64,000 nucleotides of DNA from Myxococcales bacterium (GCA_012513515.1 JAAZCA010000014.1:1268-65267), one strand, 5' to 3'; counted from the first letter of the stretch, positions 4,745-39,586 are shown. Notes: generated by a model from the letters alone, not told the origin. Numbers and translations are program-made.

Positions 4745-6319
4745 ATGAAACTACTCTCCTCCTCACAGATGCGCTCGCTGGACGAAAGCGCTATAACCCA
4801 GCATCGGATTCCATCCATGGAACTCATGGAAAACGCTGGAAGGGCGCTCGCCGATGTAGCCGCAACCTCTCGTCCTTCCCGGGCAGCAGTCGTATGCGGC
4901 AGAGGGAATAACGGCGGTGATGGGCTCGTGGCTGCGAGGTATCTGATCGGCATGGGGATCGATGTAGCCGTCCTGATTCTGGCCTCGCCTCAGGAGCTCT
5001 CCCCCGACGCTAGGGCGAACTGGGAGAGGCTGGTGAGGATATCCACGAGGGTCTTCCCCTGTACGGATGCTTCGTATTTGAGCAGTCATGCCTCGATCTT
5101 GGCGGAGGCCGATCTCATCGTGGACGCTATTTTCGGAACAGGTCTCAGGGACGAAGTGAAGGGGATATCCCTTCATGCCATAGAGATGATCAACGCGATG
5201 AAGGGGCGAAAGTCGCGCGTGGTATCTGCCGATATCCCGTCGGGGCTTTCATCCGATACCGGCATGCCTCTGGGAGGATCCGTCGTTGCTGATGATACGG
5301 TTACATTTGCTCTGCCAAAACTCGGCCTTTGTCTCGGGAGGGGGTTGGAGTATTGCGGAAATATTCATGTCGTCGATATAGGTATTCCGCCGGAGGAGGC
5401 GGAGAAGATCCCTTCTAAATATTCTCTAATAGTCGGGGATGATGTGCGTCGTTCGTTTTTACCGAGAAGAATGAATTCCCATAAGGGGACCTTCGGACAT
5501 GTGGCGATATTCGCCGGATCGCGAGCCAAGATCGGAGCGGGGTATCTCTCCTCGAGGGCGGCGCTGAGAAGCGGTTCCGGCCTCGTCACCTATGCGATGC
5601 CGGAAAGCGCCTTCGCATTTTTCGATTCGAATTATTCTGAGGTGATGTGCGAACCTCTTCCCGATAACGGTAAGGCATTTTTTTGTCATGAATCGCTGGA
5701 TAAAGCGTTGCATCTTGCGCAGGACAAGAGCGCCGTCGCGATAGGTCCGGCGATCGGGACGGAGGAGGCGACGCGCGCTTTTCTCAACGCCTTTGTGAGG
5801 GATCTCAAAACCAGCTTGGTCATCGATGCCGACGGGCTGAACCTGCTCGATCTCTCTTCCCTCAGGATGAGGGGGGCGGCGACCGTTTTGACGCCGCATC
5901 CGGGGGAGATGGCCAGGCTCACCAAAAGCGATACCGGATTGGTCAATGCGAACAGGACGCAGGCGGCGATCTCTCTTGCGGCTTCCTGTGGGGCAATTGT
6001 GGTCCTCAAGGGGATGGGAACGGTAGTCGCTGCTCCCGATGGACGCTGTGCGATAAATCGAACCGGGAACTCAGGGATGGCATCGGCCGGAATGGGGGAC
6101 GCACTCACAGGGATCATCCTCTCCCTTCTCGGTCAGGGGCTGGACCCATTCGATGCGGCCTGCGCCGGAGTTTTCGTTCATGGAATGGCCGGCGACTTTG
6201 CCGCTTCGGAAATAGGAGAGCGCGCGCTGATAACTTCCGATTTGATAAAAAATCTTCCGCGTGTTTTTTCGAGCATCGAAACTCATAGTCATTCCCGCGG
6301 AATAGAACTGGATCCCTGA
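4745..6319 (+). CDS. nnr: bifunctional NAD(P)H-hydrate repair enzyme Nnr (epimerase/ADP-dependent dehydratase)
   Basis: It has an N-terminal YjeF_N domain (GRGNNGGDG) and a C-terminal carbohydrate-kinase-like domain (GPAIG, GMGD). The last ~12 codons and the stop codon are read through a repeat element. Confidence 0.88.
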   Translation: MKLLSSSQMRSLDESAITQHRIPSMELMENAGRALADVAATSRPSRAAVVCGRGNNGGDGLVAARYLIGMGIDVAVLILASPQELSPDARANWERLVRISTRVFPCTDASYLSSHASILAEADLIVDAIFGTGLRDEVKGISLHAIEMINAMKGRKSRVVSADIPSGLSSDTGMPLGGSVVADDTVTFALPKLGLCLGRGLEYCGNIHVVDIGIPPEEAEKIPSKYSLIVGDDVRRSFLPRRMNSHKGTFGHVAIFAGSRAKIGAGYLSSRAALRSGSGLVTYAMPESAFAFFDSNYSEVMCEPLPDNGKAFFCHESLDKALHLAQDKSAVAIGPAIGTEEATRAFLNAFVRDLKTSLVIDADGLNLLDLSSLRMRGAATVLTPHPGEMARLTKSDTGLVNANRTQAAISLAASCGAIVVLKGMGTVVAAPDGRCAINRTGNSGMASAGMGDALTGIILSLLGQGLDPFDAACAGVFVHGMAGDFAASEIGERALITSDLIKNLPRVFSSIETHSHSRGIELDP

Positions 6320-6411
6320 TAGAACCATTCGGGGATGACAATCATAGTGTCATTTCCGCGGTCTTAAGCCGCCGCTAACGCGGGGCAAACGGGAATCCCG
6401 TGGAATAGAAA
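6288..6411. repeat. composite intergenic repeat (modules GTCATTCCCGCGG / GGATCCC / CGGGGATGAC / AAGCCGCCGCTAACGCGGGG)
   Basis: It shares modules with at least 13 other loci in the window. It overlaps the 3' end of nnr. Confidence 0.8.
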
Positions 6412-6417
6412 TACAAG

Positions 6418-6864
6418 ATGATAAAACGAAAAACAAAATCTCCGGTAGAAACACAGGAATTTGCCGCCGAATTTTCGGCGCGTCTAAGGCCGGGGGACCT
6501 TGTCGCGCTCATCGGGGATCTTGGCGCAGGCAAGACCCATTTTGTCCAAGGGCTTGCAGCGGGTTTTTCCGTTCCGGAAAAAATCTACGTTCGCTCTCCT
6601 TCCTTTGCGTTGATAAACGAATATCTTGGCGGTCGCCTCCCTCTATACCATTTTGATTTTTACAGGCTTTCGGATCCCTCCGAAACAGAGGGGCTTGGAA
6701 TGGAGGAATACTTTTACGGTGAAGGGGTAACGGCTGTCGAATGGGCCGATCATTTTCCTGAACTCATCCCCGCGTCCGCGTATTGGGTGGAATTTAAAAT
6801 CCTCGGCGATAGGGAGAGGGAGATAACGATTACGGGAAAAGATGACGTCATTCCCTCGGAATAG
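6418..6864 (+). CDS. tsaE: tRNA threonylcarbamoyladenosine biosynthesis protein TsaE
   Basis: It has the P-loop GDLGAGKT in a YjeE-like fold of about 150 aa. The stop codon TAG lies inside a repeat element. Confidence 0.85.
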   Translation: MIKRKTKSPVETQEFAAEFSARLRPGDLVALIGDLGAGKTHFVQGLAAGFSVPEKIYVRSPSFALINEYLGGRLPLYHFDFYRLSDPSETEGLGMEEYFYGEGVTAVEWADHFPELIPASAYWVEFKILGDREREITITGKDDVIPSE

Positions 6865-6898
6865 AACTGGATCCCCGATTAAAGCACTCGGGGATGAC
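6847..6898. repeat. REP-like hairpin repeat (GTCATTCCCTCGGAATAGAACTGGATCCCCGAT...CACTCGGGGATGAC)
   Basis: It belongs to the same family and supplies the tsaE stop codon. Confidence 0.8.
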
Positions 6899-6921
6899 GA
6901 ACGCGTCGATAAGGAGGCACA

Positions 6922-8298: not shown

Positions 8299-8300
8299 AT

Positions 8301-8335
8301 GAACTGGATCCCCGATAAAAACGCTCGGGGATGAC
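8301..8335. repeat. REP-like repeat (GAACTGGATCCCCGATAAAAACGCTCGGGGATGAC)
   Basis: It belongs to the same family and lies immediately after the lpd stop. Confidence 0.75.
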
Positions 8336-8356
8336 ACACAGATTGGTCGGAGTAAA

Positions 8357-9574: not shown

Positions 9575-9585
9575 CCTAAAAAACA

Positions 9586-9650
9586 GGTTGAGGCTGAGGT
9601 TAAGGTTAAGAAAAATCATTTTCGCTCAACCTTAACCTAAACCTTAACCT
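9586..9650. repeat. hairpin built from tandem hexamers (GGTTAA)n / (TTAACC)n downstream of lysC
   Basis: GGTTGAGGCTGAGGTTAAGGTTAAG ... CTCAACCTTAACCTAAACCTTAACC forms the hairpin and may act as a terminator. Confidence 0.7.
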
Positions 9651-9661
9651 TTCGAATTTTT

Positions 9662-9790
9662 CGGTCGATGGTCAAAAACCGTGCGATAATACGATAGTGC
9701 AATAGTGCGATAAAAGCATGTCATCCCCGAGTGATGAGAAGGTTGTCATCCCCGAGTGGTGTAGTCGGGGATCCAGCAATAAGCGTGACT
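9662..9790. repeat. composite intergenic repeat (GGTCGATGGTCAA, GTCATCCCCGAGTG x2, CGGGGATCC, GCGTGACTCG modules)
   Basis: It belongs to the same family. Confidence 0.75.
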
Positions 9791-9822
9791 CGATATAAAA
9801 ATAAAGATATATTAACTTGACT

Positions 9823-9850
9823 ATGCAGGTTGATATATATTAACCTGCAT
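9823..9850. promoter_or_regulatory. putative operator palindrome ATGCAGGTT-GATATATAT-TAACCTGCAT upstream of the HTH/Doc pair
   Basis: It has 9/10 matching arms around an AT-rich core resembling a -10 element, and it sits directly upstream of the Shine-Dalgarno and ATG of the HTH gene. Confidence 0.55.
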
Positions 9851-9862
9851 AAAGAGGTTAAT

Positions 9863-10117
9863 ATGACCATCAAAAACTTCGTGTCGACGACGGAAGCCGC
9901 TAAAATCCTCGGAATAAGCACGGTAGCTGTCTTTAAAAAAATCAAGAATGGTCAGCTTCCAGCGCAGAGGGTCGGTAGAAATTATCTGATCGACATAAAA
10001 AACCTCGGTCTTAAAGATTCCAAGCCCAATAAAAAAACAAAAAAGCTGATCAGCGAAGCGGTGAAACGCGCGGTTTCTGAATATGGAGAAGCGTTGAAAA
10101 AACTGGGGGAAGAGTAG
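9863..10117 (+). CDS. excisionase/MerR-type helix-turn-helix DNA-binding protein, putative antitoxin
   Basis: A Xis-family HTH (AAKILGISTVAVFKKIKNGQLPAQRVGRNYLI) is preceded by an AGAGG Shine-Dalgarno, with an operator-like palindrome at 9823..9850. Its stop overlaps the start of the downstream Doc gene. Confidence 0.75.
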   Translation: MTIKNFVSTTEAAKILGISTVAVFKKIKNGQLPAQRVGRNYLIDIKNLGLKDSKPNKKTKKLISEAVKRAVSEYGEALKKLGEE

Positions 10118-10536
10118 TGCATATACTTTCTCTTCAGGAAGTTCGCGATATAGCATTCGAGCTCGCCAGAGAGAGTATGGCATGGGACGAACCTATTCCG
10201 GATTTTGACACCCGATTTCCTAACGTCCTGGAAAGCTGTCTATCGGCACCTTTTCAAACCTTTGACAAAAAAAATCTTTACAAAGGGTTGCTCGAAAAGA
10301 GCGCAATACTTTTCTATCTCATGATAAAGAATCATCCCTTTGCAAATGGCAACAAACGCATAGCGGTTACAGCTCTGCTTGTTTTCTTGGCTCTAAATGG
10401 GAAATGGTTGGAGGTAAGCAATCAGGAACTGTATAATTTTGCGGTTTGGGTGGCAAGCAGCCCGCCGCAACTCATGAACGAAACCGCTGATGCTATAGAG
10501 GGTTTTCTGACAAAAAATATCGTCTGTTACAGTTGA
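10117..10536 (+). CDS. doc: Doc/Fic-family toxin (death-on-curing type)
   Basis: It carries the exact Doc motif HPFANGNKR (HxFx[DN]GNKR). It uses a GTG start overlapping the upstream stop (TAGTG). Confidence 0.85.
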   Translation: MHILSLQEVRDIAFELARESMAWDEPIPDFDTRFPNVLESCLSAPFQTFDKKNLYKGLLEKSAILFYLMIKNHPFANGNKRIAVTALLVFLALNGKWLEVSNQELYNFAVWVASSPPQLMNETADAIEGFLTKNIVCYS

Positions 10537-10544
10537 AGGACTGG

Positions 10545-10745
10545 CAAATTGACCATGGACCATAGTGCGATAAAAGCCTGTCATCCCCGAGTGATTTTAT
10601 CGGGGATCCCGTAACGACCGTGACTGGTGGAAAAACAGAGGCTAGAGGTGAGATGTTAGAAACTAGAAAAAAACGGGCTCGTAAAAATCTCGTTTCTCAC
10701 TTCTAGATTCTAGCTTCTTGATGTCGGTCGATGGTCAATTGTCGG
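10545..10745. repeat. composite intergenic repeat plus CTAGA-type tandem-repeat hairpin (10630..10720)
   Basis: It carries the modules TTGACCATGGACCA, GTCATCCCCGAGTG, CGGGGATCCCG, CGACCGTGACTGGTG and GGTCGATGGTCAATTG. A hairpin GGCTAGAGGTGAGA...TCTCACTTCTAGATTCTAGC lies inside it. Confidence 0.75.
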
Positions 10746-10981
10746 GTTTAGGATGCATATCCCTGAAAAGAGCTGTTGGCATATTCGTTCAGATATTGTT
10801 AGAATGGGCGCCATCATTATTTAAGATTCGGGGTCCCTTTTATGCGTCAGAAAACGGATGCGCGCCTTATCATAACGAGAATGCCTGTTTCGATTTTTTC
10901 GCGTAATCACTTGAAATTATTCATTATTAGCTAAATCGGCTTTGGCATATAGGTTGCAACGTTATACGCCTGGAGGTTCTT

Positions 10982-13900
10982 ATGAAGAAAATAACCATAC
11001 TAATTCTTTCCGTGATCGCGATCGCCGCGGCCTATCCGCTTTTCGCCGCACAGGATTTTGGGTTTTCCGATCCGATACCGGTCGTCGGGGATAACCCAAA
11101 TGATCCAGGCGGGACGAGTGCTGTGAGGATGTATTTTTTCAATCATCCGGCATACACGGGGGACTCTAACTTCTCATCCTCATATGAGATCGATAAAAAA
11201 GTGAGCGATGTGATTGCAGTTCCGGGATCTGTTAGGATTGGAGAGCCTACTGCTATCTATTTACCCGCTTTTGGCTATGATAAGTCAAATATGCCGAAGT
11301 TAAAATCAACTTTAGGTTTAGGGCCTAGGAATTTGACTCTAAAGTTTGCTGAAGATAAGGAAATTACGCGTTATTTAGTGATGAGACCCTCCACCAAACC
11401 TAACCGACATGGAAGGTCAGTAGTGCTTGCAGATATCAGAAAAACGAAGTCAGGCGAATACCAATCACTTTCACTCGGAAATGACCGCCAATATATCGGC
11501 TATGCAGGCAACTATATTGCCCCATACTTGAGCGCTTCAGGGAAGAGCGATCATCCGGCATTATTTAAAAGTGCCAGCTCTGCTTACTTCAAATGGTGTT
11601 CCAGATCCAATAACATGGGTATCTACTTCGAATGTGCCGAAGAGGATACAATAGAAGAGATAGATGATATATTAGCGTACGACCTGGTTCCGCCTGTTGA
11701 TGCCTCTTTGATGATAACCCCCGTTTTTGATCCATTGCAGATACATGTGGGCGGTACAACTGCTGAACGTGGGTACTTGCTGAAAAACGGCCAAAGCACC
11801 AAGGGTTTTTATGCACTGAACGCAGCTACTACGGGTGCAGAACAACGAAAAGGCGAATTTAGAAAAGGCGAATTTAACTTTGCCTTAATTTCTCCTCTAA
11901 GTTTCTTTTACAAAGGCAACTACGACAAATATCGTTTTTTGGGGTACTCAAGTCTTCAGGACTACGTGATAGACATGACAGCGTTTCCTGAGAACAACTC
12001 ATCACTAGGGGGACTTAATCCAGAAGATTGGTTCGACTTACTCTATAAAAAGGTTGACGAACCTAAGGACTTTAGCTCAATTTTTATGTTGTATTCTTTA
12101 GGTTTAATAAATCTTCCCTATGCCACAGCTAACACTGTTTCGTCCGAGACACGTACCGCAGAATCACTACAGACGATCAGCGATATAATAGCGCCTGCCT
12201 ACATCACCAACCCATGGTTTCCGGTGGCGGCCAACCCTGTGGCAGTTGTCAGGGATTCTAGCCAGGATGTAGCTACCCTTTATTACAACACACTCTTTAG
12301 TTGGAATGATTTTTTGCTTACCCCTTATGGGCGTCCGACAATTTTCAAGGACATGGATGTTCACAGAATGAAGGAACTCGTCGGTTTTAAAAAAACAGAC
12401 GGATCCTTTACTTCTCTGGAAGACTGGTCTGGATATGAGTTCTTTTATCCGAGCAAGGTGGTAGTGCCGGTGGTGATATGGGGAGTCGGTGATGTAGATA
12501 TTGCGCAGTATGAGACATCCAATCCATCTTCGATAATTACGCCGAAAACGGTAGCTCTCGTGGATTATGGCGCCTCCAGCCACCCTGGAATTTTCAATAT
12601 GGCACATTTGCAGGACAGATCAAGAATTCCTAAAGACTATCTTCTTCTTCCCTCATCCATCGCTAACAATCGTGGCTTTGCCGGCATGATATACGTCATC
12701 GATAAAAATGACACGGAAAGCCAGCTTCATATGAAGAGTTGGAAATGGACCGAAGAACTAGGAAATGCTGACGATGTCAGAAAACGATTCGCCCTAAGGC
12801 CAAGAGAAGAAATATATACGGAAATTCCGTTCAGGGTTCCTTCCAAGGCTATTATGATTCCTCCCTATGATGGAGATCCAAACGTGGTCCCTTATCAACT
12901 TGCCACGGGAAACCTTGATGGAGATTCCTGTCAGGATATCGTGGTAAGTTATCGAAGCGCCGAGATGGTAACAGATATCCCAACTAAAAATTACACTGAC
13001 TTTCACGTATCCTATCCAAACCTGTTCAGCATCATATTCAGGAGCCCGCTCAAAGATGGTAGCTGCCCATTTTCCACTAGTGATAAATATTGGGATCCTG
13101 ATGGCATTACTGTTGTTCACAAAACTTTGCCGATTTTGGGTGGGAATACGGCCGGCAATGCCGCTGTTTCAGCGGTTTCAATAGGCAATTTCGTGGGAGA
13201 ACTTGGAAATAAAAAAAGAAACGATATAGCCGTCGGAAACCTAAATCTCGAGAAGGACGCCGATGGCAATTTTGCCGGCTTTGTCTACGTCTTTGCGAAT
13301 TCGGAAGATGACATTGATCGTACAACCGGAAAGCCGATCTTTAGTTCGCCAAACACAGGATATGACCCAACTACGGGCATTGGCGCCATCAGAATTAAGG
13401 CCGGTTTTAAATCTCATCCCGATAGCACAGATAAGTGGGGCGTGGGTTATTTGACGACTGACAGCGTTAGTGTTGAAGAATACGACAACATAGGTGCCAT
13501 AAGCGGACTTCCGCTGATCCTCCCATCCCTGGCATGTCCAGTAAGCGGCAGCGATACAACCAGGGCAGTTAGCGTCCATGAAGGAATGCTCGCCACCCTA
13601 TATGCGAGAATGAGTGAAAGCATAGGATGTGATGAGATAATATCAGCTAACGAAAATAATTTAAACCAAAGCTCATGCATGGACTCCACTCATAAAATGG
13701 AATACCCTTTTCAAAAATTCGGCATGCCATTGCCTCAGCGCTGTGCGCCCAGAGAAGGGGTATGTGGAGCTGGTCTTGTTGAAGAAGCAACTAATTACAA
13801 ACTTCCGTTGTGGAGTGATATAGATTGCCCAACCCAATGCTCAAAATGGGAAAATCTATGCTTACTTAGCCAGATGGACCAAAATCTTACGTCATCTTCA

Positions 13901-16285
13901 GAACCTTATATGGGGCTTGGCGGAAATTTTTGTATGGTAAGAGATGACATTCATGGCCAACCTCTTAATCCAATGGCTTACCTTTGTATGCAGCAGCTAA
14001 ATGCTGTGCGCGAGCCGGTGAATAAGCAAGACAGCTTTGCGTATTTAACCGACTTAGGCGGCATTGCCGATGGATCGCAGACGGAAAATGCATTCTATTA
14101 TTTTGCGCCACTATTTCCGCCCGATGAAGAAACAAGTCTTAGTGTATATTCTACACTTTTTACTGGAAATAATCGCTATGCGCCAATTACGTTTATGGAC
14201 AATTTGGTCAATGCGAGCAATGCTTGGACGTTCTATCTGCCATCTACGGCAAGTGCCCAGTATAATCCCACTTACCCAGAGCGTGTGCAACCGTTCCCAA
14301 GTGGCGCAGCCGGATGTTCCCTCTTACCTCCTTCTCAGCAGAACGTAGTCAGCCAGGATAGAGAGATGTCCGTGCCATTTGCATATGATTTTCTCGATCC
14401 AAAGATGCCGCTGGAGGATAACCCCCTGTTCAATAAAATAAGCCCTCCGAGCGGCTCTCAGGCCGAGACAACCTACTATCCCTCGACTATAGATTATAAA
14501 AAAATCCCCCTTATAAAGGGGCGTGAGATGCCGGGACCTAGGGAGATGACCGTGATACTGGGGGCCGCTGCGCCATGCGGCAATGGATCTGTAGATGTGT
14601 ATCTTGGCGAGCAATGCGATCCTATTGCTGACGACCCAAGTTCCTCATGTAAGAGCTTGGGATTTGGAGATTCGAGCTCATGCAATGCAAATTGCATGTG
14701 TAGCGGATGTGGTGATGGTACGGTGGATTCGAATGCGGGAGAGGAATGCGATCTGGGTTCAGAGAATTTTTCAGATACCGATCGTGACGGATGTCGAACC
14801 GGATGCAAGTTGCACTCATGCGGTGATGAAGTGGTTGATTCCGACGAGCAGTGCGAAGGAAATCAGACGCAGGAAGGGTCACACTGCGATCCTGACAAAT
14901 GCCAGTGGGTTTCAAATACCTGCGGAGATGGGATCTTTTCACAGGACGCGACTTACAGCGAAGAATGTGATTACTCAGCCGGTGAAGAGGGCGCCTGCAA
15001 AACTGCTGGTTTTGAATGTAGCCAAAGTTGCATATGTGAACCTATTTGCGGCGACAATATCGTAGCAGGCGCTGAGGTTTGCGATGGTACCGCCGGCTGT
15101 CAGTCAGGATACACCTGTAACGAAGAATGCAGCGTATGCGAAAAGGTGCCGGTCTGCGGCGATGGAACTGTCGACCCCGGGGAAACCTGCGGAGAGCTGG
15201 GGCTTTCATGTGCTGAAGGTTTTGAATGCATCGCCCAAGGGCAACCTAATGCCTGCACATGTACGCCGGTGCCGGACTCGTTTTCATCCGACTGCGAGGT
15301 GAAGTGCGTAAGCTTCGCAGACGAAGCGGAGAAGCTCTATTACGATTCACTTAACGAGACCTATTTCCGCGCTCCATCGGGAAGAAAGGACGATTTCTTC
15401 TGCCCGAACAACTCCGTCATCCAGATGTCCTGCCTTGTCGCAGATGCTGCATTCAACGGATCCGTCGGCCCTTGGATGATGGTCCAGAGCAAGGGAATGG
15501 TGCTGCATGACATGGCCAAGATCACATCATCGGATTTTCCGTTCGATGTCGTAGCCCCGCAGAGCCCGATTCGAATCGCTCCTCTCGCATCCTCCGCGAG
15601 CTCCGGCGGAAAAGCCGCTGCGGTCGTCCTCCCGAACCTGGCCTCGATTCGAGGGAATCTGGAGTTTTCAACCAGCGGAGTCTCGCCGATGGCGGCGACA
15701 TCTGTGATGGAAAGCACGGCCGGCATAATGACGATCAACAACATGATAGAGCATCGTGCAGTCGCTCTAATGCCTTCGAGTTCAAAATCGCAGTCGAGGG
15801 ATGCTGGCAAGGCTGCTGCGGCCCCTGCCGTACATTACACGAGGCTTCGGGCCTATCCGGAACCGACCCACACTACGATAGAGAGCTGGCCGAAGGATCT
15901 CGATCCTGAGAAGCTCTATGTCGAGAATCGGCTGAAACCGGATTATGTCAGGAGCATAATTGAAACTCGTAAAAAGGAAGGGGCAAAGGGAACCCGCGAT
16001 ATCGCCCTGGGAATTTCTGACGATGTCGGCATATACGAGATGTCGATATTGCAGGAGACCTATGGTGAAAAGAGCAGCGGCACTACGGCGGTCAACTATT
16101 CATTCTATGCTGGGCCCGTATCTTCGATCTCCGAAGGGGGCGCAGGATGCGGAAAGTGCTCGATATCCGAGAATTCTGGCTTCAATGCCAGGGCCGCCAC
16201 ACCTATATTGCTGGCAGTGCTGTTGTCGGCACTCGCCCTTGGCGCAGTAAGGGTGAGGGTTAGCGTGAGGTCGAAAAGGAAGTAG
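10982..16285 (+). CDS. giant secreted/cell-surface protein (1767 aa) with FG-GAP-like repeats, Myxococcus-type CGDG cysteine-rich repeats and a C-terminal sorting-like anchor
   Basis: It has a GGAGG Shine-Dalgarno and an N-terminal signal peptide (MKKITILILSVIAIAAAYPLFAAQ). Five CGDG...EECD repeats fall at residues ~1230-1400, FG-GAP-like segments (GNFVGELGNKKRNDIAVGNLN) are present, and the protein ends GAGCGKCS...PILLAVLLSALALGAVRVRVSVRSKRK. A terminator hairpin follows at 16309..16357. Confidence 0.85.
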   Translation: MKKITILILSVIAIAAAYPLFAAQDFGFSDPIPVVGDNPNDPGGTSAVRMYFFNHPAYTGDSNFSSSYEIDKKVSDVIAVPGSVRIGEPTAIYLPAFGYDKSNMPKLKSTLGLGPRNLTLKFAEDKEITRYLVMRPSTKPNRHGRSVVLADIRKTKSGEYQSLSLGNDRQYIGYAGNYIAPYLSASGKSDHPALFKSASSAYFKWCSRSNNMGIYFECAEEDTIEEIDDILAYDLVPPVDASLMITPVFDPLQIHVGGTTAERGYLLKNGQSTKGFYALNAATTGAEQRKGEFRKGEFNFALISPLSFFYKGNYDKYRFLGYSSLQDYVIDMTAFPENNSSLGGLNPEDWFDLLYKKVDEPKDFSSIFMLYSLGLINLPYATANTVSSETRTAESLQTISDIIAPAYITNPWFPVAANPVAVVRDSSQDVATLYYNTLFSWNDFLLTPYGRPTIFKDMDVHRMKELVGFKKTDGSFTSLEDWSGYEFFYPSKVVVPVVIWGVGDVDIAQYETSNPSSIITPKTVALVDYGASSHPGIFNMAHLQDRSRIPKDYLLLPSSIANNRGFAGMIYVIDKNDTESQLHMKSWKWTEELGNADDVRKRFALRPREEIYTEIPFRVPSKAIMIPPYDGDPNVVPYQLATGNLDGDSCQDIVVSYRSAEMVTDIPTKNYTDFHVSYPNLFSIIFRSPLKDGSCPFSTSDKYWDPDGITVVHKTLPILGGNTAGNAAVSAVSIGNFVGELGNKKRNDIAVGNLNLEKDADGNFAGFVYVFANSEDDIDRTTGKPIFSSPNTGYDPTTGIGAIRIKAGFKSHPDSTDKWGVGYLTTDSVSVEEYDNIGAISGLPLILPSLACPVSGSDTTRAVSVHEGMLATLYARMSESIGCDEIISANENNLNQSSCMDSTHKMEYPFQKFGMPLPQRCAPREGVCGAGLVEEATNYKLPLWSDIDCPTQCSKWENLCLLSQMDQNLTSSSEPYMGLGGNFCMVRDDIHGQPLNPMAYLCMQQLNAVREPVNKQDSFAYLTDLGGIADGSQTENAFYYFAPLFPPDEETSLSVYSTLFTGNNRYAPITFMDNLVNASNAWTFYLPSTASAQYNPTYPERVQPFPSGAAGCSLLPPSQQNVVSQDREMSVPFAYDFLDPKMPLEDNPLFNKISPPSGSQAETTYYPSTIDYKKIPLIKGREMPGPREMTVILGAAAPCGNGSVDVYLGEQCDPIADDPSSSCKSLGFGDSSSCNANCMCSGCGDGTVDSNAGEECDLGSENFSDTDRDGCRTGCKLHSCGDEVVDSDEQCEGNQTQEGSHCDPDKCQWVSNTCGDGIFSQDATYSEECDYSAGEEGACKTAGFECSQSCICEPICGDNIVAGAEVCDGTAGCQSGYTCNEECSVCEKVPVCGDGTVDPGETCGELGLSCAEGFECIAQGQPNACTCTPVPDSFSSDCEVKCVSFADEAEKLYYDSLNETYFRAPSGRKDDFFCPNNSVIQMSCLVADAAFNGSVGPWMMVQSKGMVLHDMAKITSSDFPFDVVAPQSPIRIAPLASSASSGGKAAAVVLPNLASIRGNLEFSTSGVSPMAATSVMESTAGIMTINNMIEHRAVALMPSSSKSQSRDAGKAAAAPAVHYTRLRAYPEPTHTTIESWPKDLDPEKLYVENRLKPDYVRSIIETRKKEGAKGTRDIALGISDDVGIYEMSILQETYGEKSSGTTAVNYSFYAGPVSSISEGGAGCGKCSISENSGFNARAATPILLAVLLSALALGAVRVRVSVRSKRK

Positions 16286-16372: not shown

Positions 16373-16560
16373 TCGACCATGGACAATTGGCCTCTGTTTT
16401 TTCCAGTCACGGCTGTTGCTGGAGGGGGTCGAATCCTGATCGCTGATCCCTGATCTTTGATCAGCATTTTGTAAGATTAGCTTATATTCGAAAACATCCT
16501 TATTAAGATTAAGATCAGGATCAAGATTAAGATGAAGATTAAGATTAAGAGGAAGATTAA
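16373..16560. repeat. composite repeat: CGACCATGGACAATTGGCC module + ~105-bp MITE-like element (copy A) + (AAGATT)n hexamer tract
   Basis: The 105-bp core is nearly identical to 17343..17447, with 2 mismatches. Confidence 0.8.
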
Positions 16561-16911: not shown

Positions 16912-16926
16912 TTAAAACCTCCTCCT

Positions 16927-16984
16927 TGTGATTTTAATTTCAAAACCTCCCGACCGGCTGAGAGGTTTTGAAATTAAAATCACA
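16927..16984. promoter_or_regulatory. perfect 23-bp inverted repeat (TGTGATTTTAATTTCAAAACCTC - 12 nt - GAGGTTTTGAAATTAAAATCACA) between the divergent four-helix-bundle genes
   Basis: Both arms were read directly from the sequence. The element sits between the two Shine-Dalgarno sequences. Confidence 0.8.
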
Positions 16985-16996
16985 GATGGAGGGGTT

Positions 16997-17332: not shown

Positions 17333-17337
17333 TCCTC

Positions 17338-17552
17338 GAATCCTGATCCCTAATCCCTGATCTTTGATCAGCATTTTGTAAGATTAGCTTATATTCGAAA
17401 ACATCCTTATTAAGATTAAGATCAGGATCAAGATTAAGATTCGGGGATGACACCATGAATGTCATTCCCGCATGCTGTAAGCCGCCGCTAACGCGGGGCA
17501 AACGGGAATCCCTTGCCAATCGTTCAGCAGTTACGAGTCACCAGTCACAGCT
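17338..17552. repeat. composite repeat: ~105-bp MITE-like element (copy B) + CGGGGATGAC / GTCATTCCCGC / AAGCCGCCGCTAACGCGGGG / CACCAGTCAC modules
   Basis: It is a direct repeat of 16426..16530. Confidence 0.8.
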
Positions 17553-18966: not shown

Positions 18967-18987
18967 ATTTCAAGAAGCAAACTAACT

Positions 18988-19136
18988 TCGACCATGGACA
19001 ATTGACCTCTGTTTTTCCCAGTCACGCTTGTTACGGGATCCCCGATAGAACCATTCGGGGATGACGACCTTTTCGACACTCGGGGATGACAATCACGCCG
19101 TCATTCCCGCGGTTTTAAGCCGCCGCTAACGCGGGG
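18988..19136. repeat. composite intergenic repeat (CGACCATGGACAATTGACCTCTGTTTTTCCCAGTCACG + GGGATCCCCGAT + CGGGGATGAC x2 + GTCATTCCCGCGG + AAGCCGCCGCTAACGCGGGG)
   Basis: It belongs to the same family. Confidence 0.8.
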
Positions 19137-19192
19137 TTCCGACTGTTTCTTAACCTTGATTTTCACTGAAAAATCGATTCTACCTGGCCAGG

Positions 19193-21335: not shown

Positions 21336-21450
21336 AGCCGTGACTCGTAACTGGTGAACGGTTGGAACCCCGCGGTAGCGGCGGCTTAATGCCGCGGGAA
21401 TGACATTCATAGTGTCATCCCCGAATGACGAGAAGGTCGTCATCCCCAGT
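21336..21450. repeat. composite intergenic repeat (inverted orientation of the CCGCGG/GTCATTCCC/GTCATCCCC modules)
   Basis: AGCCGTGACTCGTAACTGGTGAACGG ... CCCCGCGGTAGCGGCGGCTTAATGCCGCGGGAATGAC ... GTCATCCCC x2. Confidence 0.78.
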
Positions 21451-21572
21451 GTAAACAGAGATCTTGTTGTAACATGCTGAAATTAAACGATAAATCTGCA
21501 TTATAAGCTTGTTATATGGTATGATATGTTAGTAATTGATTTTTTTACAGTATTATAATATAGTAGTGATCT

Positions 21573-23040: not shown

Positions 23041-23165
23041 AGCCGTGACTGGTGAGACAAGAAGGTCGTCATCACCGAATGGTTCTATCGGGGATCCCGC
23101 AACGACCGTGACTTGTGACTAGTGACTCGTAACTGGTGAACGGTTGGAACGGGATCCCGCAACAA
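23041..23165. repeat. composite intergenic repeat (AGCCGTGACTGGTGA, GTCATCACCGA, CGGGGATCCCGCAACGACCGTGACT, GTAACTGGTGAACGGTTGGAAC, GGGATCCCGC)
   Basis: It belongs to the same family. Confidence 0.78.
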
Positions 23166-24480: not shown

Positions 24481-24494
24481 CAGCCTCTTCACCA

Positions 24495-24570
24495 CTCACC
24501 AGTCACGGCTGTTACGGGATCCCCGATAAAAGCACTCGGGGATGACACCATGAATGTCATTCCCGCATGC
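24495..24570. repeat. composite intergenic repeat between convergent genes (CACCAGTCACGG, GGGATCCCCGAT, CACTCGGGGATGAC, GTCATTCCCGC)
   Basis: It belongs to the same family. Confidence 0.78.
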
Positions 24571-24571
24571 T

Positions 24572-26650
24572 TTATACTTCTTTCCCAGGGCTGAGCTCCT
24601 TGGCATATCTCCCAAGTGCCAGAAGAGGAAAGTAGTGGCGGTATCCGTGATATCTGATGTAGAAATGCCTCTCGAATCCGGTCCCCGTATAATGCTTCTC
24701 ATCCCATCCGCCCTCTGCATTGCGGTTGTTCAGAAGCCAGGCAGCCCCGCGACTTGCGGCCTTTCCCTTGGCGCGACCGCCGGCAATCAGCCCCATGAGG
24801 GCCCAGGCAGTCTGCGATGGGAGGCTGACGTTATAGCCGGAAAACTCTTTGACATCCTCGTATGTAATAGGGGATTCACTCCAGCCCCCATCTGCCCTTT
24901 GGATTGACTCCAGCCAATTCAGGGCCTTCACTATGCGCTCATCGGATGGATCTACGCCGATAGCGGAAAGGCCCATAAGTACATTCCAGGTCCCGTAGAT
25001 GTAATTTACGCCCCATCTGCCGAACCATGCGCCGAAGGGTTTCTGGCGGTTCCAGATGAACTCTATTGCGCGGGCGACGCGAGGGTCATCCTTCGTATAA
25101 CCTTTTGTGACAAGGTACTCGAGCATCCTTCCGGTGATATCCGGGGTCGAGGGGTCGAGGCATGCCTTGTGGTCCGAAAAGGGTATTCGATTGACGAGCT
25201 GCTGATTCTGGTTGATATCGAAGGCCCCCCAGCCGCCATCCTTGCATTGCATGGAGAGCATCCAGTCTATGCCAACGGCAACCGCCTCAGATTTTTCCTC
25301 CTCCGGAATAGCTGTCCTGTCTATGGCCGTGAGGACCTCTATCGTGTCATCGACGTCAGGAAAATAGTCATTCTCAAATTCGAAGGACCACCCGCCTGGT
25401 TTTGCAAGGGGGTTTTTGATCTTCCAGTCGCCTTTTACTGTTCTTATCTGTTTCCCTATGAGCCATCTGGCTGCCTTGAGAAGGGCGGGGTGGTCAGGAG
25501 GGAGTCCCGTCTCGAGAAGCGCCATCATCATCCATGGCGTATCCCATACCGGCGATATGCAGCACTGCTGATGTATCCTATTTCCGTCGCTTTTGGAAAC
25601 AAATGGGTCCTTGCCAATCTCACGAATTTTCGACGGGCGTGCTGCAGGGGTGTCGCGAATTTCATCCGGAAGCGCAGGTATTTCAGCTGTCGCATAACGC
25701 TGTTGAAACATTTTTAGCGCCTGGAAGGGCTTTCTTATCTGCGGCGAATCGTTGTGATATCCGATGGCTTTGAATGCAAGGGCACAGTAAGCCAGCGCGG
25801 GATATATGTCCTCGGTCCTCTTTACATGCTCCCATGTCCATTCAGAACACTTTGAAATCGCATACTTACGTAGTGGACTAATAGGTATTTTGTTAAGGAT
25901 CTTTAAAGCTTTATCTGTGATTAGGAACATATTTTCAATAGAGATAAGGCCTTTTTCATGCTTAAACCGAAACTTTCTCTGTTCAGGTTTATCTCTAAAG
26001 AGCTCGTCTAATGTTATGTTATTAGGAGCTTTTTTATTTTTTTTCAGCGTCATGAAAATTAGCAGAGGCACGATCGTAGCGCGCGCCCAGCTGGAGAACT
26101 CGTATATGTTAAATGGTATCCAGTTCGGCATCAGTATAAACCATGCCGGCATCTCAGGGCATGCCGACCACGGGATGATGCCGAACATGGCAAGGTGTAT
26201 CTTTGTGAAAACACGACATTCCTCTATTCCGCCATTTTTGACGATGTATTGTCTGGCTTTGACCATATTTTCATCATCGGCCGGGACGCCGGCTATGCGC
26301 AATGCGAAATAAGACTCGATCGTCGTGGAGAGATCGGGAGGGCCATCGTGATAGATAGCCCAGGTTCCATCTGAACGCTGGACATCGAGGATTCGGTTTT
26401 TGATTCCTTCCTGAATTTCAGCATCGACCTCGCCGAGATAGTGCATGAGGTATATAAACTCCGCTCCGATCGTCTCGTTGGCCTCAAGGGAATACCACCA
26501 GTATCCATCCTGGCGCTGCTGGGAAAGAAATCGTTCGACGGTGGGGGCGAGTGAGGAGAGCAGCCCATCCCGCGTAAGCTCTTTAGCGTCAGCGGGTGTC
26601 GGTTCGAGATCCCTTGAAATGCTCTCTTTTATAGCTGCGTTATCCTTCAT
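24572..26650 (-). CDS. shc: squalene-hopene cyclase
   Basis: It has QW repeats (QRQDGYWW, DGGWG, DGGW) and the DVDDT catalytic motif (FPDVDDTIEV). The start ATG at 26650 follows a GGAGG Shine-Dalgarno, whereas the ORF-track start at 26665 is a TTG. Confidence 0.9.
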   Translation of the reverse strand: MKDNAAIKESISRDLEPTPADAKELTRDGLLSSLAPTVERFLSQQRQDGYWWYSLEANETIGAEFIYLMHYLGEVDAEIQEGIKNRILDVQRSDGTWAIYHDGPPDLSTTIESYFALRIAGVPADDENMVKARQYIVKNGGIEECRVFTKIHLAMFGIIPWSACPEMPAWFILMPNWIPFNIYEFSSWARATIVPLLIFMTLKKNKKAPNNITLDELFRDKPEQRKFRFKHEKGLISIENMFLITDKALKILNKIPISPLRKYAISKCSEWTWEHVKRTEDIYPALAYCALAFKAIGYHNDSPQIRKPFQALKMFQQRYATAEIPALPDEIRDTPAARPSKIREIGKDPFVSKSDGNRIHQQCCISPVWDTPWMMMALLETGLPPDHPALLKAARWLIGKQIRTVKGDWKIKNPLAKPGGWSFEFENDYFPDVDDTIEVLTAIDRTAIPEEEKSEAVAVGIDWMLSMQCKDGGWGAFDINQNQQLVNRIPFSDHKACLDPSTPDITGRMLEYLVTKGYTKDDPRVARAIEFIWNRQKPFGAWFGRWGVNYIYGTWNVLMGLSAIGVDPSDERIVKALNWLESIQRADGGWSESPITYEDVKEFSGYNVSLPSQTAWALMGLIAGGRAKGKAASRGAAWLLNNRNAEGGWDEKHYTGTGFERHFYIRYHGYRHYFPLLALGRYAKELSPGKEV

Positions 26651-29969: not shown

Positions 29970-29973
29970 CAGA

Positions 29974-30507: not shown

Positions 30508-30525
30508 ATCCCCCCCTCGATCCCT

Positions 30526-30560: not shown

Positions 30561-30734
30561 GTTTGGTGCTATATTTTTTTCCTCTCCATTTGTCAGCATC
30601 CCCCAATTTTGCGGGCCGTTAAGCCAGATAATGAAAAAATAGTCAATGAAAAGTTAGTGTTTCTACGGAATGGTCGAAACAGGATCTCTGTAATTACTTC
30701 AGGAATTTCTGAAAAGCTAGCTGCAACAATAACT

Positions 30735-30812
30735 TCGACCATGGACGATTGACCTCTGTTTTTCCCAGTCACGCTTGTTACGGGATCCCCGATTACACCA
30801 CTCGGGGATGAC
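30735..30812. repeat. composite intergenic repeat (CGACCATGGACGATTGACCTCTGTTTTTCCCAGTCACG + GGGATCCCCGAT + CACTCGGGGATGAC)
   Basis: It is near-identical to 18988..19060. Confidence 0.8.
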
Positions 30813-30860
30813 AAGCGCATAGTTTTTAGAGGTGCCCTGAATTTGCTGATTTCTCAGAGA

Positions 30861-31610
30861 TTACTTAATCCATCTTCCAAACTCGCGCCATCTTATGCCG
30901 CCGTGATCCTTGTCTATGGAAAGCCACACGAACATCGCCTTTCCCTTTATATTTCCATCGGGAACAAAACCCCACTCCCTGCTGTCGGCGGAATTATCTC
31001 TATTGTCACCCATCACGAAATAATATCCCGGAGGGACAACGAGATCATAGGAGTTCCTATCCAGATATCTCTCGTACTGGACGATATGATCTGAATCCCC
31101 AGCCAGTTCATTATAAAAATCGAAATCACGCCAGCCTCTTACGAATGGGATTGCGCGCTCTGCCGAGTTTTTTACTAGGAGTTTTCTTTTGTCCCCGGGA
31201 TATTCCTTCACGCTCAGCTTGTGTCGGGGCAGGTTTTCTCCATTTACCGAAACATCCTCGCCATAAATTTTCACCCTGTCCCCCGGCAGGCCGATAACGC
31301 GTTTGATGAAATCCTTGCTCTCATCTTCGGGATATATAAAGACGAGGACATCCCCGCGTTTGGGCTCCGTAAACCTAAAAAAACGATGCCTGGTCAGTGG
31401 AATTCTAAGACCGTAGATGAACTTATTCACGAAGATATGATCCCCGATGGAAAGGGTCGGTATCATCGACCCGGATGGAATCTTGAATGCCTCGATCCCA
31501 AAAGATCTTATAAAGAGAGCGGCGATAACCGCTATGAGTAGGGCCTCGAAGTACTCCCGAAATGCCCCCTTCTTTTTCTGATGTTTAGGATTAGGTTCTG
31601 CTGACATCAC
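30861..31610 (-). CDS. lepB: signal peptidase I
   Basis: It has an N-terminal transmembrane segment, the SGSMIPTL catalytic-Ser box, and a GDNRDNSADSR box. Confidence 0.9.
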   Translation of the reverse strand: MMSAEPNPKHQKKKGAFREYFEALLIAVIAALFIRSFGIEAFKIPSGSMIPTLSIGDHIFVNKFIYGLRIPLTRHRFFRFTEPKRGDVLVFIYPEDESKDFIKRVIGLPGDRVKIYGEDVSVNGENLPRHKLSVKEYPGDKRKLLVKNSAERAIPFVRGWRDFDFYNELAGDSDHIVQYERYLDRNSYDLVVPPGYYFVMGDNRDNSADSREWGFVPDGNIKGKAMFVWLSIDKDHGGIRWREFGRWIK

Positions 31611-33494: not shown

Positions 33495-33501
33495 AGAAAA
33501 G

Positions 33502-38896: not shown

Positions 38897-39147
38897 AACT
38901 CCTCACTTTTAGCGTATCTCGGTAGCAAATTGGACGTACCATAACAAGTGAAATATATAGCTATTCATAGATATGAATTAACTTAATATTTCATATATCA
39001 TCTTGACTTTATATAAAATATTTTTAAAATATACTTAAATTAAGCATAATTAAGTATAAACTAAGTCTGCTTTTGCTTTGATATTTCAATGACTTATTGC
39101 CTGCTTGGCACCCTAAGGCCGCCAAAGCTGATCCTAAAGGGGGATAT

Positions 39148-39339
39148 ATGGATCCAGCTCTCAAGGCACTTTGTATTGAAGTTTTAGACGGCGATGTTGA
39201 CGGGGACGAATTTGCCACCCTGCTGATGGAGACCGGGGTCGATCTCGACGATTTTGAGTGGAATGTAGCAAGCAGGCTTCTCGAGCGCGGTGACGTCATG
39301 AATTTCCTTACCAGGCGTTATGGATATACCTTGCAGTGA
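39148..39339 (+). CDS. small acidic hypothetical protein (~63 aa)
   Basis: The ORF 39097..39339 contains an internal ATG at 39148 (MDPALKALCIEV...). No family was recognised. It is flanked by an AT-rich tract and a repeat element. Confidence 0.35.
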   Translation: MDPALKALCIEVLDGDVDGDEFATLLMETGVDLDDFEWNVASRLLERGDVMNFLTRRYGYTLQ

Positions 39340-39461
39340 CCCACCCTTACCTTTCTCAATGCACAAAAACAGTTTTGATCAACGGGATAAGTTCTAAGTT
39401 TTCAGTGAATTAACCTTCGAAAAATCAGCAAATTCAGGGCACCTCCAAAAGCCATGCGCTT

Positions 39462-39586
39462 GTCATCCCAGCAACAACCGTGACTGGTGAATCGTAACTG
39501 GTGAACGGCGGATCAAAGATCAGCGACAATGGACCATTGACCAGCTACGATCGGTGGTTTTTGTCGATGGTCAATTGTCCATTAGC
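39462..39586. repeat. composite intergenic repeat (GTCATCCCAGC, CCGTGACTGGTGA, GTAACTGGTGAACGG, CAATGGACCATTGACC / GGTCAATTGTCCATT inverted pair)
   Basis: It belongs to the same family. Confidence 0.72.

What the first reader, a model, noticed from the sequence alone, without database searches (positions are those of the whole stretch)
6288..39586. Genome-wide modular family of short palindromic intergenic repeats (REP/MITE-like) occupying nearly every accessory junction
At least 14 loci carry shuffled combinations of a few modules (6288, 6847, 8301, 9662, 10545, 16373, 17338, 18988, 21336, 23041, 24495, 30735, 39462 and the flanks of these). The modules are: M1 GTCATCCCCGAGTG / CACTCGGGGATGAC (self-complementary pair); M2 GGGATCCCCGAT; M3 GTCATTCCCGCGG...TTAAGCCGCCGCTAACGCGGGGCAAACGGGAATCCC; M4 CGACCATGGACAATTGACCTCTGTTTTTCCCAGTCACG (with internal GACCATGG/CAATTGACC dyad symmetry); M5 CCGTGACTGGTGA / GTAACTGGTGAACGGTTGGAAC. 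Copies occur in both orientations, nest inside one another, and lie between convergent, divergent and tandem genes. This mosaic architecture resembles enterobacterial BIMEs and Neisseria Correia elements, but the module sequences are distinct. They are not CRISPR repeats because there is no regular spacing and no unique spacers.
Basis: seen in the sequence. Interest (0 to 1): 0.6.

Follow-up and report, generated by a model that had tools for sequence, protein, structure and literature searches.

The report
Known hairpin repeats, targets of Ssn nuclease
The short repeats between genes are real, but their core is an already described hairpin family (CGTC-tagged REPs, the Neisseria dRS3/NTS or "Ssn-related motifs") that a small GIY-YIG nuclease recognises in single-stranded DNA, here as a long-loop version mixed with repeat pieces private to this lineage.

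Summary
M1 has 14 matches against 0.42 expected, and M2, M4 and M5 are similarly enriched.

The "modules" are not independent:
- M1 and M2 are the two arms of one hairpin, (C/T)GTC-ATCCCCGA-[9-nt loop]-TCGGGGAT-CC.
- M3 is a second hairpin with the same tag and an 18-31-nt loop.
- M4, M5, a 105-nt unit and a further unit were found only in this lineage.

The hairpin fits the CGTC-tagged REP superfamily (Di Nocera 2013), which includes Neisseria dRS3/NTS and the Ssn-related motifs (SRM) of Chenal 2025. It occurs in at least 120 stretches from about 15 phyla.

In 80 metagenome loci chosen by protein alone, 71% of ~95-aa GIY-YIG (ssnA-like) genes have such a hairpin beside them. This reproduces the published figure. 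SsnA cuts these hairpins only as single-stranded DNA.

The partner is therefore Ssn, not RAYT. The window holds neither gene.

The repeats lie between housekeeping genes, not accessory junctions. Four presence/absence differences among 93-98% identical relatives show turnover, and two of them are blocks with shared, imperfectly inverted ends.

The published SRM search pattern finds none of the window's hairpins because their loops are too long.

Verdict: a new member of a known kind, of modest interest.

The parts
6288..6339 (.). Dimer with tails facing. A short CGTC hairpin (GTCATTCCCGCGGAAT, + strand) and a long-loop hairpin B (6307-6339, - strand; one C:A mismatch, which is G:T on the other strand). 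It overlaps the last 11 codons and the stop of nnr/yjeF.
6349..6402 (+). M3 hairpin: GTC-ATTTCCG...CGGGAAT-CCC with a ~31-nt structured loop. It faces the previous tag across a 9-nt spacer.
6847..6898 (.). Dimer with tails facing: short hairpin (+ strand) and hairpin B (6866-6898, - strand, CGTC tag, CCAG tail). It supplies the last codons and the stop of tsaE.
8303..8335 (-). Hairpin B (TGTC tag, CCAG tail) in the 58-nt lpd-aspartokinase gap.
9720..9776 (+). A 25-nt half-hairpin unit (GTCATCCCCGAGTG + ATGAGAAGGTT) followed by a full hairpin B. The 25-nt unit is absent in relatives L122, L123 and L126.
10562..10655 (+). Leader ATAGTGCGATAAAAGC, then hairpin B (10580-10611), then the tail module CGTAAC..CGTGACTGG..GAAAAACAGAGG (M4 in reverse).
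16374..16533 (+). M4 (16374-16411) and the first copy of the 105-nt direct repeat (16429-16533).
17336..17552 (.). Second 105-nt repeat copy, a half hairpin B (17438-17451, - strand), a 9-nt spacer, the M3 hairpin (17461-17515, + strand) and M5 heptads (17516-17552, - strand).
18989..19137 (.). Mosaic of M4, hairpin B (19033-19065, - strand), half hairpin (19077-19090, - strand), a 9-nt spacer and M3 with a degenerate 3' arm (19100-19137, + strand).
21339..21451 (.). Mosaic of M5 heptads, M3 (21366-21404, - strand), a 9-nt spacer, the 25-nt half-hairpin unit (21414-21438, + strand) and a truncated tag (21439-21451).
23044..23150 (+). M5 core, hairpin B with one stem mismatch (23068-23099), and tandem GTGACTN heptads (23107-23150).
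24489..24575 (.). M5 (- strand), hairpin B (24514-24546, - strand), a 9-nt spacer and a truncated M3 (24556-24575, + strand). It lies in the 91-nt gap between convergent genes.
30656..30862 (.). Composite block: left end module (30703-30735), M4 (30736-30773), hairpin B (30780-30812, - strand) and right end module (30813-30862). About 190 nt (30656-30847) is absent in relative L218.
39415..39586 (.). Rearranged copy: the end module inverted (39415-39461), a tag with the hairpin deleted (39462-39469), M5 heptads, and a 64-nt palindrome of M4-like arms (39523-39586; fold z = -3.5).

Best explanation
The repeats are a lineage-specific mosaic built around CGTC-tagged REP hairpins. This is the same kind as Neisseria dRS3/NTS and the Ssn-related motifs (SRM). 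The organism is an uncultured anaerobic-digester bacterium, labelled 'Myxococcales bacterium' or 'bacterium ADurb.Bin270' in NCBI.

Each core unit has four parts:
- an unpaired (C/T)GTC tag;
- an 8-bp stem that starts with AT;
- a loop, here 9 nt, or 18-31 nt in M3;
- a C-rich tail.

Most likely mechanism:
1. When the DNA is single-stranded, the hairpin forms on the tag strand.
2. It is bound by a ~95-aa single-domain GIY-YIG nuclease of the Ssn family.
3. The nuclease cuts a few nucleotides 5' of the tag.

This is shown experimentally for Neisseria and Wolbachia homologs. For this organism it is inferred.

The hairpins are the gene-less majority of a system whose gene-carrying form is hairpin-ssnA-hairpin. 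In this lineage they have become joined to private modules (M4, M5, the 105-nt unit and the end modules). At least some are gained or lost as composite blocks of roughly 160-300 nt with imperfectly inverted ends.

Side effects visible here are repeat-encoded C-termini and stop codons of nnr and tsaE, and repeats long enough to confuse assembly or support recombination.
For: Anatomy:
- Tag, AT-first 8-bp stem and CC tail are present in nine full copies.

Same element elsewhere:
These include the isolates Iodobacter arcticus, Iodobacter sp. CM08 and Deefgea salmonis. My own estimate of the chance expectation is about 0.06 hits.
- In those loci it is usually the left half of a dimer, GTCAT-hairpin-CCAG..CTGG-hairpin-ATGAC. 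Tails-facing pairs number 91, against 13 tags-facing and 10 same-orientation.

Family definitions:
- PMC3733652 and PMC11893778.

Partner gene, tested independently:
- The only small ORF family recurring across the hairpin-chosen loci is a ~97-aa GIY-YIG protein.
- Loci chosen by protein alone show the gene lying in the spacer of a hairpin dimer.
- Among 80 metagenome loci, 52 of 73 have a correctly oriented hairpin within 100 nt, and 25 of 73 have one on both sides.
- Hairpin density is 6.4 per kb in the flanks against 0.43 per kb in the rest of the same loci.
- The median gap after the stop codon is 8 nt. The published figures are 71% and 42%.
- The window's own hairpin type flanks ssnA-like genes in L074, L130-133, L140 and L196.

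Stem covariation:
- 6 of 8 pairs show compensatory changes. 43 cells carry a double change, against 7.6 in shuffles (0 of 500 shuffles reach it).

Turnover among relatives:
- Four indel polymorphisms.
- The tilS-ftsH block in L122 has 23-nt ends that are 78% complementary. The window's pyrR-lepB block has recognisably the same end sequences.
Against: - No ssnA homolog lies in the window (tblastn; Pfam scans plus the gene calls on relatives' contigs). Whether this genome has one is unknown.
- The published SRM search pattern gives 0 hits in the window.
- Loops of 9-31 nt exceed the 4-5 nt of the four defined CGTC families.
- In the window most hairpins are not in the canonical tails-facing dimer. 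They are tags-facing across a 9-nt spacer, or joined to M4/M5.
- Cleavage by any Ssn enzyme has not been tested on this hairpin.
- Mobilisation of SRMs by Ssn is a published hypothesis, not a demonstrated step.
- The indels could be deletions rather than insertions.
Confidence: 0.78

Rival explanations
1. The repeats are classical REP/REPIN elements mobilised by a RAYT (IS200/IS605-type tyrosine transposase).
For: They are short palindromes in intergenic DNA, often paired and in mosaic arrays.
Against: - The tag is (C/T)GTC, not GTAG.
- No Y1 transposase was found among the window's proteins.
- No RAYT-like family recurs in the 886 kb of hairpin-chosen loci.
- CGTC repeats were reported as never flanking RAYT genes (PMC3733652).
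- The gene that they do flank is a GIY-YIG gene.
Confidence: 0.04
2. The mosaic blocks are ordinary IS-derived MITEs moved by a conventional transposase that recognises their inverted ends. The CGTC hairpins are only passengers or later insertions.
For: - Two polymorphic blocks share end sequences. In L122 these form a 23-nt, 78% complementary inverted repeat. By my reading of the sequence the window copy's ends are about 70% complementary.
- The blocks are present or absent among 93-97% identical relatives.
Against: - No transposase lies in the window.
- No clear target-site duplication could be read.
- Most hairpin copies in the window (8303, 9745, 6847 and others) lie outside any block with inverted ends.
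- The hairpin itself is pan-bacterial, while the end modules were found nowhere else.
- This rival explains the block movement, not the hairpin family, and can coexist with the main explanation.
Confidence: 0.25
3. The hairpins act mainly in RNA, as terminators, mRNA stabilisers or processing sites, and are kept for that reason.
For: - They lie downstream of genes and inside likely operons, so they are probably transcribed.
- This role has been proposed for REPs in general.
Against: - No T-run follows the stem.
- Both orientations occur relative to the genes.
- Single mismatches show no strand bias: 17 are G:T on the tag strand and 13 on the other strand, p = 0.58.
- SsnA does not bind the RNA form.
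Confidence: 0.1
4. This is a local duplication confined to this region rather than a dispersed family.
For: - M3, M4, M5 and the 105-nt unit were found nowhere in 1.2 Mb of other loci.
- The junction pattern gave nothing in the viral contigs.
- The 41-64 kb part of the window has none.
Against: - The core hairpin is spread over many contigs of many genomes. Examples are six contigs of one Rhodanobacteraceae MAG and four each of three others.
- Relatives carry an extra cluster outside the window, between tilS and ftsH.
- Copies lie at more than 13 separate intergenic sites over 33 kb, with different flanks.
Confidence: 0.05

Closest known systems
Ssn-related motifs (SRM) / Neisseria Transformation Sequence (NTS) with the SsnA GIY-YIG single-stranded-DNA nuclease (Chenal et al. 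2025, Nat Commun 16:2388, PMC11893778)
   Same: - GTC tag directly 5' of the palindrome.
- AT-first stem.
- C directly 3' of the palindrome.
- Hundreds-of-copies intergenic habit, in clusters around genes.
- The same hairpin type brackets ssnA-like genes in other organisms.
   Different: - The loop is 9 nt (18-31 nt in M3), so the published search pattern misses every copy in the window.
- No ssnA lies in the window.
- The host is an uncultured digester bacterium, not a host-associated symbiont.
- Cleavage is untested.
CGTC-tagged REP superfamily, families CGTC-1 to CGTC-4 (Di Nocera, De Gregorio, Rocco 2013, BMC Genomics 14:522, PMC3733652)
   Same: - CGTC/TGTC tag.
- 8-bp stem beginning with AT.
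- CCA-type tail.
- Dimers in inverted orientation.
- No RAYT.
   Different: - Loops of 4-5 nt define the four families. Here they are 9 nt or more.
- In the window the tail is CCCG as often as CCAG.
- The dominant local arrangement is tags-facing across 9 nt.
Neisseria intergenic mosaic elements (NIMEs: RS repeats interleaved with dRS3)
   Same: Arrays in which the tagged hairpins alternate with other, longer repeat modules, between genes and in shuffled combinations.
   Different: The non-hairpin modules (M4, M5, the 105-nt unit, the end modules) were found in no other locus examined and appear private to this lineage. They were not compared with Neisseria RS sequences.
REPIN/RAYT and E. coli BIMEs
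   Same: - A gene-less majority of hairpin dimers plus a rare nuclease gene bracketed by the same hairpins.
- Hairpins recognised in single-stranded DNA.
   Different: The tag is different (GTAG), and so is the enzyme fold (HUH Y1 transposase rather than GIY-YIG).
Neisseria Correia elements
   Same: Only the composite blocks resemble them in outline: 150-300 nt, inverted ends, intergenic, polymorphic.
   Different: The core repeats here are 30-nt tagged hairpins, not elements of about 100-155 bp with long terminal inverted repeats. No sequence relation was seen or tested.

Membership tests
CGTC-tagged REP (Di Nocera 2013) | Unpaired 5' tag CGTC (or TGTC/CCTC) | tested here: met
   CGTC at 6866-6898 and 19033-19065. 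TGTC at the hairpins ending or starting at 8335, 9745, 10580, 24546 and 30812.
CGTC-tagged REP (Di Nocera 2013) | Stem of 8-9 bp whose first two pairs are A-T and T-A | tested here: met
   ATCCCCGA / TCGGGGAT folds as an 8-bp stem. AT closure is invariant in related loci.
CGTC-tagged REP (Di Nocera 2013) | Loop of 4-5 nt | tested here: not met
   The loop is 9 nt in hairpin B and 18-31 nt in M3. The paper itself notes exceptions with other loop lengths.
CGTC-tagged REP (Di Nocera 2013) | Short unpaired 3' tail, consensus CCA | tested here: met
   CCAG in four copies and CCCG in five. CCAG predominates in other genomes.
CGTC-tagged REP (Di Nocera 2013) | Mostly inverted dimers | tested here: inconclusive
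   In other genomes there are 91 tails-facing pairs against 13 and 10 of the other arrangements. In the window only 6288-6339 and 6847-6898 are such dimers. Five junctions are tags-facing across 9 nt.
SRM/NTS-Ssn system (Chenal 2025) | Match to the published SRM search sequence HGTCWYN(0-2)YYVSBRHN(0-5)WNVSBRGN(0-2)RNCYNB | tested here: not met
   0 hits in the window (0.27 expected).
SRM/NTS-Ssn system (Chenal 2025) | GTC directly 5' of the palindrome (needed for cutting) and C directly 3' of it (needed for binding) | tested here: met
   Both are present in all nine full copies.
SRM/NTS-Ssn system (Chenal 2025) | The motif flanks ssnA (cd10448 GIY-YIG) genes | tested here: met
   Met for the hairpin type in other organisms: L074, L130-133, L140, L196, L005 and L083. 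General association: 52 of 73 loci.
SRM/NTS-Ssn system (Chenal 2025) | An ssnA homolog in the same genome | not testable with these tools
   None in the 64-kb window.
SRM/NTS-Ssn system (Chenal 2025) | Strand-specific cleavage of the single-stranded hairpin by the cognate Ssn | not testable with these tools
   This is a biochemical assay. The paper reports that loop identity is dispensable and that the loop can be extended, which favours long-loop copies being substrates.
REP/REPIN-RAYT | GTAG tag and a RAYT gene flanked by the repeats | tested here: not met
   The tag is GTC. No Y1 transposase was found among the window's proteins or among recurrent ORFs near the hairpins.
MITE | Terminal inverted repeats, target-site duplication, and presence/absence polymorphism | tested here: inconclusive
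   Inverted ends of 23 nt at 78% complementarity, and polymorphism at two sites. No clear target duplication was seen. This applies to the composite blocks only.
CRISPR array | Regularly spaced identical repeats with unique spacers | tested here: not met
   Copies are scattered at 13 intergenic sites in both orientations, with no regular spacing.
Rfam RNA families | A match at gathering score | tested here: not met
   Only one tRNA (47643-47716) matched in the whole window.

The most novel reading that the evidence does not exclude
The long-loop hairpin (GTCATCCCCGARTG-YTTYTR-TCGGGGATCC, with a T-rich 9-nt loop) may be a distinct SRM class found across bacteria that the published search pattern cannot see. 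It is nearly identical in about 15 phyla. That would point either to recent spread of Ssn/SRM units between phyla or to a second partner that reads the loop.

In this digester lineage the hairpins travel inside composite blocks with inverted ends that differ between strains. That would give a natural system in which to catch how SRMs are copied, a step that has not yet been shown for the Ssn system.
Probability: 0.2. Interest if true: 0.5.

Novelty: new member of a known kind. Interest (0 to 1): 0.3.

Why it matters
It assigns an unrecognised repeat family in an uncultured digester bacterium to a system with a known enzyme and a tested biochemical mechanism.

It also shows that the published SRM search pattern misses long-loop copies. 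About 13% of the hairpins in protein-chosen Ssn loci have 9-nt loops, so current counts of these motifs are likely underestimates.

The strain-level gains and losses, and the repeat-encoded ends of nnr and tsaE, show that these elements are reshaping housekeeping regions.

If Ssn enzymes accept such loops, this widens the set of natural enzyme/hairpin pairs available as single-stranded-DNA tools.

Tried and rejected
- **Rfam scan of the window.** Only a tRNA matched.
- **A 'new' GIY-YIG/hairpin association.** I found it independently and at first took it to be new, because two literature searches gave nothing. A third search found Chenal 2025, which had already described it. The novelty claim was withdrawn.
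- **RNA-strand test by wobble asymmetry.** No bias was seen.
- **Whether long-loop or type-B hairpins go with a particular Ssn subclade.** They do not: 62% identity within the group against 61% between groups.
- **A universal tags-facing spacer length.** The 9-nt spacer is almost confined to the window (4 of the 5 pattern matches). Other loci peak at 15 nt.
- **Target-site duplication of the composite blocks.** It could not be read with confidence.
- **Reaching other contigs of the same genome.**
  - The junction pattern gave 0 hits in viral contigs.
  - The hairpin itself gave only 3 viral hits.
- **CRISPR, integron attC sites and terminators.** Rejected on anatomy: no regular spacing, and no T-run after the stem.
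Full report
**Observation**

- M1 at up to 2 mismatches: 14 matches against 0.42 expected.
- M2: 7 against 0.68.
- M4: 3 against 0.
- M5 core: 17 against 2.4.

Direct-repeat families tie the loci together. Reading the loci changes the parts list.
- M1 and M2 are the two arms of one hairpin, (C/T)GTC-ATCCCCGA-[9 nt]-TCGGGGAT-CC. It folds as an 8-bp stem (-7.6 kcal/mol, z = -3.2).
- M3 is a second hairpin with the same GTCAT start and a loop of 18-31 nt.
- M4 and M5 share the core CGTGACTGG in opposite orientations.
- There are additional modules: a 105-nt unit present twice at 98% identity, and an end module at 30813-30862 and 39415-39461.

**Context**

The genes around the repeats are housekeeping genes: ftsH, folP, glmM, pdxJ, acpS, nnr/yjeF, tsaE, lpd, aspartokinase, recG, a radical-SAM (LIAS_N) protein, squalene-hopene cyclase, a sigma-70 factor, pyrC/pyrB/pyrR, lepB and lepA.

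No transposase, RAYT or small GIY-YIG gene was found in the window. The evidence is the Pfam scans, the gene calls on relatives' contigs and a tblastn search.

13 of the 25 intergenic gaps of at least 25 nt carry a tag. All 13 lie between 6.3 and 39.6 kb.

NCBI names for identical proteins give the source as 'Myxococcales bacterium' and 'bacterium ADurb.Bin270'.

**The hairpin elsewhere**

My own arithmetic puts the chance expectation at about 0.06.

The hits came from:
- Omnitrophota, Desulfobacterota, Elusimicrobiota, Nitrospirota and Chloroflexota;
- Calditrichota, KSB1, Bacteroidota, Parcubacteria, Planctomycetota and Caldisericota;
- Beta-, Gamma- and Zetaproteobacteria;
- three cultured isolates.

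Several contigs were often hit per genome.

In those loci the hairpin is typically the left half of a dimer, GTCAT-hairpin-CCAG..CTGG-hairpin-ATGAC. There were 91 tails-facing pairs, against 13 and 10 of the other arrangements. M3, M4, M5 and the 105-nt unit occur in none of these loci. The hairpin is almost absent from viral contigs, with 3 hits.

**What family it is**

Di Nocera et al. 2013 defined CGTC-tagged REPs by:
- a CGTC/TGTC tag;
- an 8-9-bp stem starting with AT;
- a 4-5-nt loop;
- a CCA tail;
- mostly inverted dimers.

They equated the Neisseria members with dRS3 and reported no associated transposase. The window's hairpin meets every feature except loop length.

**The partner gene**

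Clustering all ORFs of the 120 hairpin-chosen loci gave only one small recurrent family, a ~97-aa GIY-YIG protein. All four of its copies lie within 400 nt of hairpins.

Loci chosen by protein alone showed the gene sitting exactly in the spacer of a hairpin dimer. The hairpin ends 14 nt before the ATG, and the partner starts 9-12 nt after the stop.

In 80 metagenome loci found by protein similarity:
- 40 of 79 have a correctly oriented hairpin upstream.
- 42 of 74 have one downstream, at a median of 8 nt after the stop.
- 52 of 73 have at least one, and 25 of 73 have both.
- Hairpin density is 6.4 per kb in the flanks against 0.43 per kb elsewhere in the same loci.
- Orientation is 42:6 upstream and 44:12 downstream.

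Stems covary while the tag is fixed. 6 of 8 pairs show compensatory changes, with 43 double-change cells against 7.6 in shuffles (0 of 500), and slid controls are far lower.

The window's own hairpin type flanks such genes in L074, L130-133, L140 and L196.

**This is already published**

Chenal et al. 2025 (PMC11893778) described the following.
- NTS is defined as CGTCATTCCCGCGMAVGCGGGAATCYRG, and the wider 'Ssn-related motifs' (SRM) extend it to other bacteria.
- These motifs associate with ssnA (cd10448 GIY-YIG): 71% of homologs have at least one SRM nearby, and 42% have one on both sides.
- SsnA binds the hairpin only as single-stranded DNA and cuts a few nucleotides upstream.
- The three bases before the palindrome govern cutting.
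- The C after the palindrome governs binding.
- Loop identity is dispensable, and the loop can be extended.
- In N. meningitidis, SsnA restricts incoming NTS-bearing single-stranded DNA during transformation.
- The NTS-ssnA-NTS layout resembles an insertion sequence, and domestication was proposed.

My numbers reproduce theirs in an independent data set. The association is therefore solid and not new.

Their SRM search pattern gives 0 hits in the window.

**Turnover in this species**

Contigs with identical Lpd or AAA-ATPase proteins are 93-99.99% identical to the window. They differ at four repeat sites.
1. The 25-nt half-hairpin unit at 9719 is absent in L122, L123 and L126.
2. A ~116-nt hairpin cluster between pdxJ and acpS is present only in L124.
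3. The ~190-nt mosaic at 30656-30847 is absent in L218.
4. A ~290-nt mosaic between tilS and ftsH is present in L122-L124 and absent in the window's strain.

The last two share end sequences. In L122 these form a 23-nt inverted repeat that is 78% complementary. No clear target duplication could be read.

**How it most likely works**

- Shown elsewhere: Ssn enzymes bind and cut such hairpins in single-stranded DNA.
- Shown here: the window's hairpins carry the tag, stem and 3' C that matter for this. The same hairpin brackets ssnA-like genes in other bacteria. The family is being gained and lost in this species.
- Inferred: a cognate Ssn exists in this genome. The long loops are tolerated. The hairpins and their mosaic blocks spread as non-autonomous elements.

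The RNA-level rival is weak.
- No T-run follows the stem.
- Both orientations occur.
- There is no wobble bias (17 against 13).
- SsnA does not bind RNA.

The RAYT rival fails on the tag and on the absence of the gene.

**Verdict**

This is a real repeat family of a known kind. It is a long-loop member of the CGTC-REP/SRM family, set in a NIME-like mosaic private to the lineage.

It could not be run for M3-M5 in this genome.

Noticed in passing
window 6288-6319 and 6847-6864: The last 11 codons and the stop of nnr/yjeF, and the last codons and stop of tsaE (..VIPSE*), are encoded by the repeat itself. The hairpin dimers have replaced the native 3' ends of two housekeeping genes.
   Followed up: partly
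window 16429-17440: Two divergent genes of the 23S_rRNA_IVP family (PF05635; 16561-16911 on the - strand, 16928-17332 on the + strand) are bracketed by 105-nt direct repeats that are 98% identical. The same 105-nt unit lies inside the polymorphic tilS-ftsH block of relatives (within the L122/L124 insertion aligned).
   Followed up: partly
window 9863-10536: An HTH_17 gene and a Fic/DOC gene, which look like a toxin-antitoxin pair, sit between two repeat clusters (9575-9862 and 10537-10981).
   Followed up: no
window 10982-16285: A 1767-aa ORF has no confident Pfam domain, only a faint DUF4215 match. Its 3' part diverges and carries indels in relatives L217 and L218 (about 95-97% identity).
   Followed up: no
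window ~24480-24575: Gene strand switches from + to - here and the cumulative GC skew peaks. The 91-nt gap between the convergent genes holds a hairpin pair. This could be a replication terminus or only a gene-strand effect.
   Followed up: no
L217 19176-19265 (equivalent to window 30723-30812 and 18977-19065): This scaffold runs from the pyrR side straight into a second, more divergent recG copy through the 90-nt M4-plus-hairpin repeat. It is probably a chimeric assembly across the repeat, or possibly a real rearrangement.
   Followed up: partly
window 41270-41413: Six tandem copies of an 18-nt unit lie inside a 640-nt stretch with no long ORF called on the - strand. On that strand the unit would read as a KSSKEE-like repeat.
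   Followed up: no
window 39523-39586: A strong 64-nt palindrome made of M4-like arms overlaps the 3' end of the arginase-family gene (fold of 39505-39590: -16.1 kcal/mol, z = -3.5).
   Followed up: partly
L127 3741-3919 and 4316-4516: In a high-GC organism the ssnA-like gene is flanked not by short hairpins but by two ~180-nt long palindromes whose tips are GTCATCCCCGG...CCGGGGATGAC.
   Followed up: no
L134 4306-4390: Next to the ssnA-like gene, the tag-proximal half hairpin plus 10-11 nt (GGCGGGAATGAC + AGGGGRAG..) is repeated three times in tandem. This resembles the window's 25-nt half-hairpin unit, which recurs at 9720, 19077 and 21414.
   Followed up: no
IMG/VR loci L227-L229: The hairpin pattern hit only 3 stretches in 2.9 million viral contigs. 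It is essentially a chromosomal element, not a phage-borne one.
   Followed up: no
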